A stretch of 64,000 nucleotides of DNA from a virus: the IMG/VR virus record IMGVR_UViG_3300036832_001166, positions 32,001-96,000 of that record; one strand, 5' to 3'. Shown here one piece after another: positions 48,274 to 48,399 of this stretch. Numbering within the stretch: the stretch's first letter is position 1; every line of letters starts with the position of its first letter. The notes under the pieces are model-generated. The model did not search any database, had not been told where the DNA came from, and saw only the letters and a list, made by a program, of their open reading frames with translations. The position numbers and the translations under genes were made by a program.

Positions 48274-48282
48274 TGCTAACAT
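48274..48282 (+). promoter_or_regulatory. Extended -10 for the orphan GGY-NN RNA
   Basis: TG-C-TAACAT 12 nt upstream of the first unit. Confidence 0.5.
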
Positions 48283-48294
48283 CGTGTGCGATGC

Positions 48295-48399
48295 GGCCCG
48301 GCCAGGCTGGGCTAGGCGCGGCGAGGGAGGCCCGGCAAGGCAGGGCTCGGATGGGCTTGGCGCGGGAGGAGGGATCGGCCCGATGGTCGCTCCCTCCTC
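48295..48399 (+). ncRNA. Orphan GGY-NN guide RNA (14 units plus 3' hairpin)
   Basis: NN = CC CA TG TA GC GA GA CC AA AG TC TG TT GC; stem GAGGAGGGA(48366-74)/TCCCTCCTC(48391-99). Confidence 0.8.

What the first reader, a model, noticed from the sequence alone, without database searches (positions are those of the whole stretch)
48274..48399. Orphan, self-promoted GGY-NN RNA that decodes to a conserved helicase motif
Seen: 14 units with NN = CC CA TG TA GC GA GA CC AA AG TC TG TT GC (unit 7 is the 4-nt GG-GA), its own TG-C-TAACAT upstream and a 9-bp hairpin downstream. Reverse-complemented and read as NN-x, it gives GC AA CA GA CT TT GG TC TC GC TA CA TG GG. As codon positions 1-2 this is A-[KN]-[HQ]-[DE]-L-[FL]-G-S-S-A-Y-[QH]-[WC]-G, and 12 consecutive residues match HDLFGSSAYQWG in this phage's primase-helicase about 700 bp away (9/12 dinucleotides identical, 3 synonymous). 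This is internal evidence for a gapped code that skips the wobble base. Inference: it targets the replication gene of close relatives.
Basis: partly seen in the sequence, partly recalled or inferred. Interest (0 to 1): 0.95.

Follow-up and report, generated by a model that had tools for sequence, protein, structure and literature searches.

The report
Stand-alone VIPR guide RNA against rival helicases
This 14-unit five-base repeat is a separate guide-RNA gene of the phage's CRISPR-like VIPR silencing system; it spells a conserved stretch of the primase-helicase gene as rival sister phages write it, while the phage's own copy, 720 bases away, encodes the same amino acids with other leucine and serine codons.

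Summary
The array has 14 GG(Y)NN units. Its reverse-complemented NN pairs match codon positions 1-2 of HDLFGSSAYQWG in the phage's own primase-helicase at 9 of 12 units. The other 3 units differ only by codon family (Leu CTN/TTG, Ser TCN/AGY).

The "gapped code" is real but already published in 2026 bioRxiv preprints as the VIPR system: a Vipr RAMP protein, GGY/NN vrRNAs and a 1-nt skip rule aligned to the wobble base. The phage has a Vipr gene 2.2 kb away (E 1.1e-15 to the solved SUSP1 Vipr).

- **Targets:** the 12 pairing units match 24/24 in five IMG/VR phage contigs, always in frame on the same helicase motif. There were 0 hits in 596 Gb of prokaryote genomes.
- **Self-match:** 19/24 (79%).
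- **Nulls:** 0 of 2000 shuffled guides reach the peptide-level match.
- **Layout:** 12 pairing units, 2 non-pairing units, GGG, then a hairpin. A second guide of this phage has the same layout.

I file it as a new member of a known kind. The additions are self-immunity by synonymous codon-family swaps, guide genes lying next to the resistant allele, and 4-nt units. Expression is untested. Earlier notes of this scan report solo VIPR guides beside recoded targets in this genome and in other genomes.

The parts
48274..48282 (+). Promoter-like extended -10 (TG-C-TAACAT). A start site is inferred near 48289-48291.
   Evidence: TGCTANNNT occurs 15 times in the window against 5.3 expected; 0 of 100 shuffles reach 15. 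There are 26 in the genome. By my eye about 22 of them carry a longer palindromic consensus upstream, which this copy lacks. The generic sigma-70 scan found no promoter in 47900-51800. This call is an inference.
48290..48294 (+). Degenerate unit GATGC just before the array. Its NN (GC) would pair with the next codon (Ala GCN) of the target.
   Evidence: Read. It is a single unit, so the match may well be chance.
48295..48353 (+). Guide part of the vrRNA: units 1-12 (GG(Y)NN). Unit 7 is 4 nt (GGGA). Unit 12 has a purine at the Y position (GGATG).
   Evidence: These units match 24/24 in L001-L005.
48354..48363 (+). Units 13-14 (GGCTT GGCGC), which pair with no target found. Probably 3' cap units.
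   Evidence: All relatives have Ser-Pro codons (or Thr-Ala in L009) where GC AA would be needed. The same layout, 12 pairing units then GGCAC GGCAC then GGG and a hairpin, is seen in array B.
48364..48399 (+). GGG followed by the 3' hairpin (9 bp, 1-nt internal loop, 5 bp, loop CGAU). It is the tail or terminator, and it overlaps by 2 nt the stop codon of the convergent gene.
   Evidence: -26.4 kcal/mol. No U-tract follows; the terminator scan did not call it.
47541..47576 (+). Own near-target: HDLFGSSAYQWG written as CAT GAC TTG TTT GGA AGC AGT GCC TAT CAA TGG GGT. It matches the guide at 19/24.
   Evidence: GC3 is 5/12 here, the lowest of the 619 12-codon windows of the gene.
46104..47996 (+). 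Primase-helicase gene (630 aa).
   Evidence: Pfam AAA_25, E 4.4e-21. phrog_239 'DNA primase/helicase', E 8.8e-29. Homologues in cultured phages are annotated DNA primase/helicase.
50585..51301 (+). vipr gene (238 aa), the protein partner.
   Evidence: PDB 36pp_D 'SUSP1 Vipr protein', E 1.1e-15, residues 18-199 aligned to 5-186. phrog_4652, E 6.5e-35. No Pfam family.
51302..51716 (+). Main vrRNA arrays A (26 units) and B (41 units) downstream of vipr, each ending in GGCAC GGCAC GGG plus a hairpin.
   Evidence: Units 28-39 of B match the RusA gene of L006 at 24/24.
48398..48874 (-). Convergent 158-aa gene of unknown function. It bounds the vrRNA cassette.
   Evidence: GC1/2/3 is 0.63/0.36/0.90, which is coding-like, unlike the overlapping + strand ORFs. 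It is 96% identical to L006 8487-8950. No Pfam or PHROG family.

Best explanation
Window 48274-48399 is a separate gene for a VIPR guide RNA (vrRNA) of about 105-110 nt. It is probably transcribed from its own extended -10 promoter and ended by the hairpin.

By analogy with the published SUSP1 system, one Vipr protomer (gene at 50585-51301) binds each GG(Y) and exposes the NN pair. The 12 exposed pairs then read a double-stranded DNA target two bases at a time and skip every third base. Here the target is the sense strand of the primase-helicase gene at the codons for HDLFGSSAYQWG, with the skipped base on the wobble position.

Sister phages that write this motif with CTN Leu and TCN Ser codons match 24/24. 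When they share a cell with this phage, they would have their replication gene silenced by the bound filament.

The phage's own gene encodes the same peptide with TTG Leu and AGC AGT Ser. That removes 5 of the 24 read bases in the middle of the footprint (79%, just under the 80% used in the preprints), which should spare it.

What is shown here: the repeat anatomy, the Vipr homology, the perfect natural targets, the lower self-match, and the layout of 12 pairing units plus 2 non-pairing units. What is inferred: transcription, Vipr loading, silencing, and the effect of the 5 mismatches.
For: - **Repeat and decoding:** verified.
- **Vipr homologue:** E 1.1e-15 to the solved SUSP1 Vipr.
- **Published mechanism:** the 1-nt skip rule, wobble alignment, silencing and the filament structure come from the Results of 10.64898/2026.04.26.720920 and .720927.
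- **Perfect targets:** the 12-unit target pattern hits 5 IMG/VR contigs, all in frame on the helicase motif, and 0 records of genome contigs (596 Gb).
- **Codon-family-free scan:** the motif was found in 8 IMG/VR contigs. Five score 24/24, two score 22/24 and one scores 19/24.
- **Peptide-level null:** 0 of 2000 shuffles reach the observed match.
- **Own codon usage:** Leu TTR is 4.6% and Ser AGY is 40%, so all three alternative families together have P about 0.007.
- **Second guide:** array B units 28-39 match the closest relative's RusA gene at 24/24 and the own copy at 19/24, again followed by 2 non-pairing units, GGG and a hairpin.
- **Relatives lack the system:** G001-G005 have no Vipr (the own-genome control was positive). 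G001-G004 have no GGYNN arrays; G005 was not in that scan.
Against: - There are no expression data.
- The generic promoter and terminator scans call nothing here.
- The promoter lacks the palindromic upstream half that most TGCTANNNT sites of this genome share.
- No U-tract follows the hairpin.
- The tail is not the conserved pseudoknot of SUSP1, and the tails of this phage's vrRNAs share only GGG plus a hairpin.
- In SUSP1, R-loop formation starts near the 3' end, yet here the two 3'-most units do not pair.
- Unit 12 has a purine where the SUSP1 pocket excludes purines.
- The self-match of 79% is only just below the 80% cut-off, and mismatch tolerance is not known to me.
- No other record carries this guide, so there is no conservation evidence for the RNA itself.
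- The five perfect targets were found by the pattern itself. Among the 4 motif-bearing relatives that one search found by protein similarity, only 1 is perfect (24, 22, 21 and 19 of 24).
Confidence: 0.8

Rival explanations
1. Autoregulation. The vrRNA acts on the phage's own helicase gene through the imperfect 19/24 match, to time or damp replication, and the perfect matches in relatives only reflect common ancestry of the motif.
For: The best own-genome hit of the guide is its own helicase gene, 754 bp away. The 79% match is close to the 80% threshold of the preprints.
Against: The mismatches are exactly the synonymous codon-family swaps that lower pairing without changing the protein, and they sit in the middle of the footprint. 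The guide matches rivals perfectly. The preprints report no self-hits at 80% or more in their sets. The second guide shows the same pattern, 24/24 on the rival and 19/24 on self.
Confidence: 0.07
2. Silent relic. The array is a leftover or recently acquired vrRNA copy that is no longer transcribed or loaded.
For: The promoter is atypical for this genome. No scan calls a promoter or terminator. No homologous copy exists elsewhere. The array contains a 4-nt unit and a GGA unit.
Against: All 14 units keep GG. The 12 pairing units are still perfect against five natural targets. The 4-nt and degenerate units also occur inside the array B guide that matches 24/24 and in arrays of Vipr relatives. The layout equals that of the locus vrRNAs.
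Confidence: 0.08
3. Antisense RNA against helicase mRNA rather than DNA. The vrRNA is complementary to the sense strand, so it could pair with rival (or own) helicase mRNA.
For: The guide pairs with the coding strand. The cryo-EM preprint shows that Vipr-vrRNA can pair with ssRNA.
Against: In that preprint RNA targets gave mostly incomplete filaments and no triplex. The array B guide of this phage pairs with the template strand of RusA, so it cannot read mRNA. The preprints find targets on both strands.
Confidence: 0.04
4. Chance or simple-sequence repeat with no function.
For: The genome is G+C rich, and short GGYNN runs of 3 units are common.
Against: 33 five-unit matches against 1.27 expected. 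0 of 2000 shuffles reach the peptide match. Five perfect in-frame external targets.
Confidence: 0.01

Closest known systems
VIPR systems, type II of Escherichia phage SUSP1 and the P. fulva prophage (bioRxiv 10.64898/2026.04.26.720920 and 10.64898/2026.04.26.720927)
   Same: - GGY/NN pentamer vrRNA within the published 9-16 repeats.
- A Vipr RAMP homologue (E 1.1e-15).
- The 1-nt skip rule with the skip on the wobble base.
- Targets in competing phages.
- 12 pairing units, as in the SUSP1 vrRNA used for cryo-EM.
   Different: - The phage is an uncultured 125-kb high-G+C phage.
- The tail is GGG plus a plain hairpin, not the conserved pseudoknot.
- Two non-pairing units lie before the tail.
- Occasional 4-nt units lack Y, and one unit has a purine at Y.
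- No vap gene is evident. The downstream RusA gene is also kept in the vipr-less relative L006.
- The target is an essential replication gene of sister phages, not a satellite or a lysogeny regulator.
Solo (orphan) vrRNAs of F5 satellites and VIPR-null SUSP1-like phages (bioRxiv 10.64898/2026.10.15.759431)
   Same: - A stand-alone vrRNA away from the main array.
- Wobble-aligned target in relatives.
- A self-match lower than the match to rivals.
   Different: - The carrier has its own vipr 2.2 kb away, so the preprint's definition of solo is not met.
- The target is the primase-helicase, not vipr, vrRNAs, satellites or host REP decoys.
- Self-avoidance comes from synonymous Leu/Ser codon-family swaps. 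I did not find this in the main texts I read or searched. Their supplements were not seen.
CRISPR-Cas class 1 crRNA-Cas7 filaments, and CRISPRi-type silencing
   Same: A RAMP filament on a guide RNA, periodic base flipping, and target binding that blocks transcription (as stated in the preprints).
   Different: There is no CRISPR array, spacer acquisition genes or nuclease here. The guide is non-contiguous, with 2 of every 5 RNA bases reading 2 of every 3 DNA bases.

Membership tests
VIPR vrRNA | Tandem GGY/NN pentamers, 9-16 repeats | tested here: met
   14 units at 48295-48363, all with GG. Twelve have Y at position 3, one is 4 nt (GGGA) and one is GGATG. Enrichment is 33 against 1.27 expected.
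VIPR vrRNA | A cognate Vipr (RAMP) protein encoded by the same element | tested here: met
   ORF 50585-51301 matches PDB 36pp_D 'SUSP1 Vipr protein' at E 1.1e-15 over residues 18-199. The G-loop Asp and Arg are kept and the Trp is not (read against residues named).
VIPR vrRNA | NN pairs specify a target under the 1-nt skip rule | tested here: met
   A skip of 1 gives the top own-genome hit: 20/28 against 17, 18 and 19 for skips of 0, 2 and 3. There are 5 perfect 24/24 natural targets.
VIPR vrRNA | Skip base aligned with the codon wobble position of a coding target | tested here: met
   All 5 perfect targets and the own near-target are in frame with the helicase ORF.
VIPR vrRNA | Conserved structured 3' tail (a pseudoknot in the SUSP1 clade) | tested here: inconclusive
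   A strong hairpin follows GGG. The tails of this genome's vrRNAs share only GGG plus a hairpin. I made no pseudoknot test and found no homologues of this RNA.
VIPR vrRNA | No self-target at 80% or more NN match | tested here: met
   The best own hit is 19/24 = 79% over 12 units, or 20/28 = 71% over 14 units. This is close to the limit.
VIPR vrRNA | Expressed as an RNA of about 100 nt that co-purifies with Vipr | not testable with these tools
   No transcript data. Only a promoter-like TGnTAnnnT and a hairpin.
Solo vrRNA sensu Lopez et al. 2026 | [quoted passage not shown] | tested here: not met
   vipr starts 2.2 kb downstream, at 50585. The definition was read.

The most novel reading that the evidence does not exclude
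The guide gene and the recoded (resistant) helicase allele 720 bp away form a linked poison-antidote pair. The guide silences sister phages that carry the common codon spelling. The Leu/Ser codon-family swaps are the antidote. Tight linkage lets the pair spread together by recombination among co-infecting relatives.

In this genome, three guides (this one, array B units 28-39, and the one inside the CCA-enzyme gene) each have their best own-genome near-match only 139-754 bp away. Array A's best own hit, 18/24, lies about 50 kb away, and most other 12-unit windows did not reach 18/24.

Among relatives the only changes at guide-read positions of the otherwise conserved peptide are such family swaps, apart from one Tyr-to-Trp change and the divergent L009. 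If so, the published claim that wobble skipping makes VIPR proof against synonymous escape has a systematic loophole at six-fold degenerate codons.
Probability: 0.35. Interest if true: 0.7.

Novelty: new member of a known kind. Interest (0 to 1): 0.45.

Why it matters
The finding shows a VIPR guide aimed at an essential replication gene of sister phages, in a soil phage lineage far from the E. coli and Pseudomonas models.

It also gives a clean natural example of how a carrier avoids its own guide. It keeps the protein and switches Leu and Ser to their other codon families, the only synonymous changes that a wobble-skipping code can see. This qualifies the preprints' argument that the skip rule defeats synonymous escape.

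The case supplies ready-made allele series for measuring mismatch tolerance: 24/24, 22/24, 21/24 and 19/24.

The layout of 12 pairing units, 2 non-pairing units, GGG and a hairpin, together with the 4-nt units, is useful for vrRNA callers that assume strict 5-nt units.

Tried and rejected
- **Rfam:** no family at gathering score in the window. Only a chance-level miRNA match at E 0.66 in 47950-48450.
- **tRNA/tmRNA:** none.
- **Coding reading of the array:** rejected. The overlapping + strand ORFs lack the GC3 pattern of real genes, and the region is absent from the closest relative.
- **Same guide elsewhere:** 0 IMG/VR hits for its first five units.
- **Prophage targets:** 0 hits in genome contigs.
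- **Close Vipr relatives by single-protein scan of viral contigs:** none. The profile scan found 7.
- **Metagenome scan for helicase relatives:** 46 loci, but only one new close relative, L023. L024 and L025 are the contigs of L008 and L009.
- **Whole-RNA fold:** not more stable than shuffles, z -1.65. Only the hairpin is notable.
- **Full 14-unit target:** I looked for a relative that matches it (A-K/N before HDLF). None was found among the loci scored.
- **VIPR type (I-VII):** I could not assign one. The classification rests on supplementary data that I did not see.

Full report
**What is in the sequence**

Window 48274-48399 reads as follows:
- TGCTAACAT, then a 12-nt gap.
- 14 head-to-tail units GG(Y)NN at 48295-48363: GGCCC GGCCA GGCTG GGCTA GGCGC GGCGA GGGA GGCCC GGCAA GGCAG GGCTC GGATG GGCTT GGCGC.
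- GGG, then a hairpin at 48366-48399.

The hairpin has 9 bp, a 1-nt internal loop, 5 bp and a 4-nt loop, at -26.4 kcal/mol. Runs of five GGYNN units with at most 1 mismatch number 33 in the window against 1.27 expected, and 0 of 100 shuffles reach 33. All 33 are on the + strand. They fall into this array, a large block at 51302-51680 next to an ORF at 50585-51301, and single matches at 50501-50523 and 52795-52817. The genome (125,432 bp, direct terminal repeats, rated 100% complete) has one more long array, on the minus strand at genome 110435-110514.

The array is intergenic. It lies between the primase-helicase gene (46104-47996, +) and a convergent 158-aa gene (48398-48874, -). The convergent gene has the GC1/2/3 pattern of real genes, 0.63/0.36/0.90, and the + strand ORFs that overlap the array do not.

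**What kind of thing it is**

The Results and Discussion of bioRxiv 10.64898/2026.04.26.720920 describe VIPR systems:
- a small RAMP protein, Vipr;
- vrRNAs of 9-16 GGY/NN repeats plus a 3' tail;
- a rule in which the NN pairs read the target with one base skipped per unit, usually the wobble base;
- transcriptional silencing of competing phages.

The Results of 10.64898/2026.04.26.720927 give the structures. One protomer binds per repeat, GGY is sequestered, NN is exposed, the skipped target base is flipped out, and R-loop formation proceeds 3' to 5' from near the tail.

For 10.64898/2026.10.15.759431 I read sections 8 and 17 and searched passages. It describes solo vrRNAs and a self-match lower than the non-self match.

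The ORF at 50585-51301 matches the solved 'SUSP1 Vipr protein' (PDB 36pp_D) at E 1.1e-15 over residues 18-199. It also matches phrog_4652 at E 6.5e-35 and has no Pfam family. It has 233 homologues at E 1e-5 or better in the large protein collection. All seven IMG/VR loci found with a profile of these homologues carry long GGYNN arrays next to the gene. The system is therefore a VIPR, and the array under study is one of its vrRNA genes.

**Decoding and controls**

The reverse-complemented NN pairs are GC AA CA GA CT TT GG TC TC GC TA CA TG GG. With a 1-nt skip, the best hit in the whole genome on both strands is the phage's own helicase gene at 47535-47575, scoring 20/28. Skips of 0, 2 and 3 give at best 17, 18 and 19.

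At the nucleotide level this is only weakly significant. Eight of 300 unit shuffles and 15 of 300 base shuffles reach 20. For the 12 units that matter, the score is 19/24, reached by 5 of 1000 shuffles.

At the peptide level it is strong. Twelve of 14 decoded positions are compatible with SAHDLFGSSAYQWG, and none of 2000 shuffled guides reaches 11; the maximum is 10. The own codons are CAT GAC TTG TTT GGA AGC AGT GCC TAT CAA TGG GGT. Nine units are identical, and the other three are Leu and two Ser written in the other codon family.

**Natural targets**

- The 12-unit pattern (24 fixed bases) found 5 IMG/VR contigs (L001-L005). In every one it is in frame on HDLFGSSAYQWG of a helicase homologue.
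- The same pattern found nothing in 596 billion bases of prokaryote genomes. That serves as a chance control and suggests the targets are not common prophages.
- A scan for the motif that leaves the Leu and Ser codons open found 8 IMG/VR contigs. Five score 24/24. Two score 22/24, each with one Ser switched to AGC. One scores 19/24: the contig of L006, the closest relative, with the same TTG, GGA, AGC, AGT spelling as this phage.
- Among the 4 motif-bearing relatives that one search found by protein similarity, the scores are 24, 22, 21 and 19. A metagenome fragment, L023, scores 22.
- The two 3'-most units (TT, GC, which would read GC AA) match none. All motif-bearing relatives have Ser-Pro there, except L009, which has Thr-Ala.

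**Relatives lack the system**

The five relatives' records G001-G005 have no Vipr homologue. They include G001 (99% complete) and G002 (89% complete). The positive control on the own genome worked. G001-G004 have no GGYNN arrays; G005 was not in that scan. No IMG/VR record carries the first five units of this guide.

In L006 and L001 the place of the cassette is taken by unrelated sequence.

**Self-avoidance**

In this phage's own long ORFs (66 ORFs, 61 kb), Leu is TTR in 4.6% of cases and Ser is AGY in 40%. All three alternative families together have a probability of about 0.007 (this is a post hoc figure).

The swaps remove 5 of 24 read bases, in vrRNA units 6, 7 and 10, and leave 79%. The preprints use 80% as the hit threshold and report no self-hits above it.

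The discovery preprint argues that skipping the wobble base defeats resistance by synonymous swaps. Lopez et al. argue that escape needs amino-acid changes. This locus shows the exception: six-fold degenerate Leu and Ser.

In the library, 'vrRNA' occurs in four works. 'Synonymous' occurs together with it in two, in the passages just cited. I saw no mention of codon-family escape, but I did not see the supplements.

**Layout**

Array B of the main locus ends with 12 units (28-39) that match 24/24 the antisense strand of the RusA gene start of L006. The match is wobble-aligned, and the own RusA site scores 19/24. These 12 units are followed by GGCAC GGCAC, GGG and a hairpin.

The outlying vrRNA has the same plan: 12 pairing units, GGCTT GGCGC, GGG and a hairpin. 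The array B guide contains a 4-nt unit (GGCA) and two degenerate units (GACAT, TGCCC) that still count as one unit each. This supports independently the reading of GGGA as a unit with NN = GA. Occasional 4-nt units also occur in arrays of Vipr relatives.

**Promoter and terminator**

TGCTANNNT is enriched: 15 in the window against 5.3 expected, and 26 in the genome. By my reading, most copies sit in a longer palindromic consensus, and one pair flanks the vipr leader (50449 on the minus strand, 50482 on the plus strand). The copy at 48274 has the TGnTAnnnT part only.

The generic scans call neither a promoter nor a terminator here. Transcription is therefore inferred, not shown.

**Linkage**

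For three guides, the best own-genome near-match (19-20 of 24) lies 139-754 bp from the guide gene. These are this guide, array B units 28-39, and the guide inside the CCA-enzyme gene. The only other 12-unit window that reached 18/24, in array A, has its best own hit about 50 kb away.

For shuffled versions of this guide, the best hit falls within 1 kb in 15 of 1000. Notes of this scan on other genomes report the same pattern; I did not test those.

**Verdict**

This is a new member of a known kind, with three points that I did not find in the main texts:
- self-immunity by codon-family swaps;
- guide genes next to the resistant allele;
- the layout of 12 pairing units plus 2 non-pairing units, with 4-nt units.

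Limits:
- no expression or binding data;
- no homologue of the RNA;
- mismatch tolerance unknown;
- the host is unknown (cultured homologues of the helicase, at 35% identity or less, are mostly from actinobacterial phages);
- supplements were not seen.

Noticed in passing
window 48014-48254 (+): A roughly 220-nt element just after the helicase stop is conserved in L001 (82%), L003 (78%) and L002 (78%, cut by the contig end). It is absent from L006 and L005/L007. RNAalifold on 3 sequences gives 62 pairs, 6 of them with changes on both sides. There is no Rfam match. It is a candidate structured RNA of unknown kind.
   Followed up: partly
window 51608-51666 (+), against L006 11072-11106: Units 28-39 of array B are a 12-unit guide that matches 24/24 the template strand of the RusA gene start of the closest relative. 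The own RusA site (51747-51781) scores 19/24 and lies about 140 bp from the guide.
   Followed up: yes
window 47541-47576: The own target patch has the lowest GC3 of the helicase gene: 5 of 12, against 90% gene-wide, the minimum of 619 windows. It uses several codons that are rare in this phage (CAT, TTT, GGA, AGT, TAT, CAA, GGT). Several relatives also have lowered GC3 here (7-9 of 12). The cause is unknown.
   Followed up: partly
whole genome; for example window 50441-50490, 53759-53767 and 54495-54521: A long promoter-like palindrome, roughly TAGCGCAC-N3-GTGTGCTAnnnT, recurs. The genome has 26 TGCTANNNT sites, and most of them lie upstream of genes by eye. A divergent pair sits between vipr and the gene at 49628-50584.
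   Followed up: no
window 48875-51730: Relative to L006, this whole block has no blastn match and is replaced in L006 by 2.1 kb of other sequence. It holds two minus-strand ORFs of 272 and 318 aa with no family, vipr and the arrays. The two ORFs could be accessory genes of the VIPR island. RusA downstream is kept in L006, so it is not one.
   Followed up: partly
window 48408-48871 (-): The 158-aa gene next to the vrRNA is 96% identical to L006, against 79-87% for the other aligned segments. This suggests recent exchange of this segment between the two phages.
   Followed up: no
L081 6730-7396 and other Vipr loci L082-L087: Relatives of this Vipr carry very long uninterrupted GGYNN tracts. In L081 there are more than 100 units in about 670 bp. 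This is far beyond the 9-16 units of a single vrRNA, so processing or staggered use seems likely.
   Followed up: no
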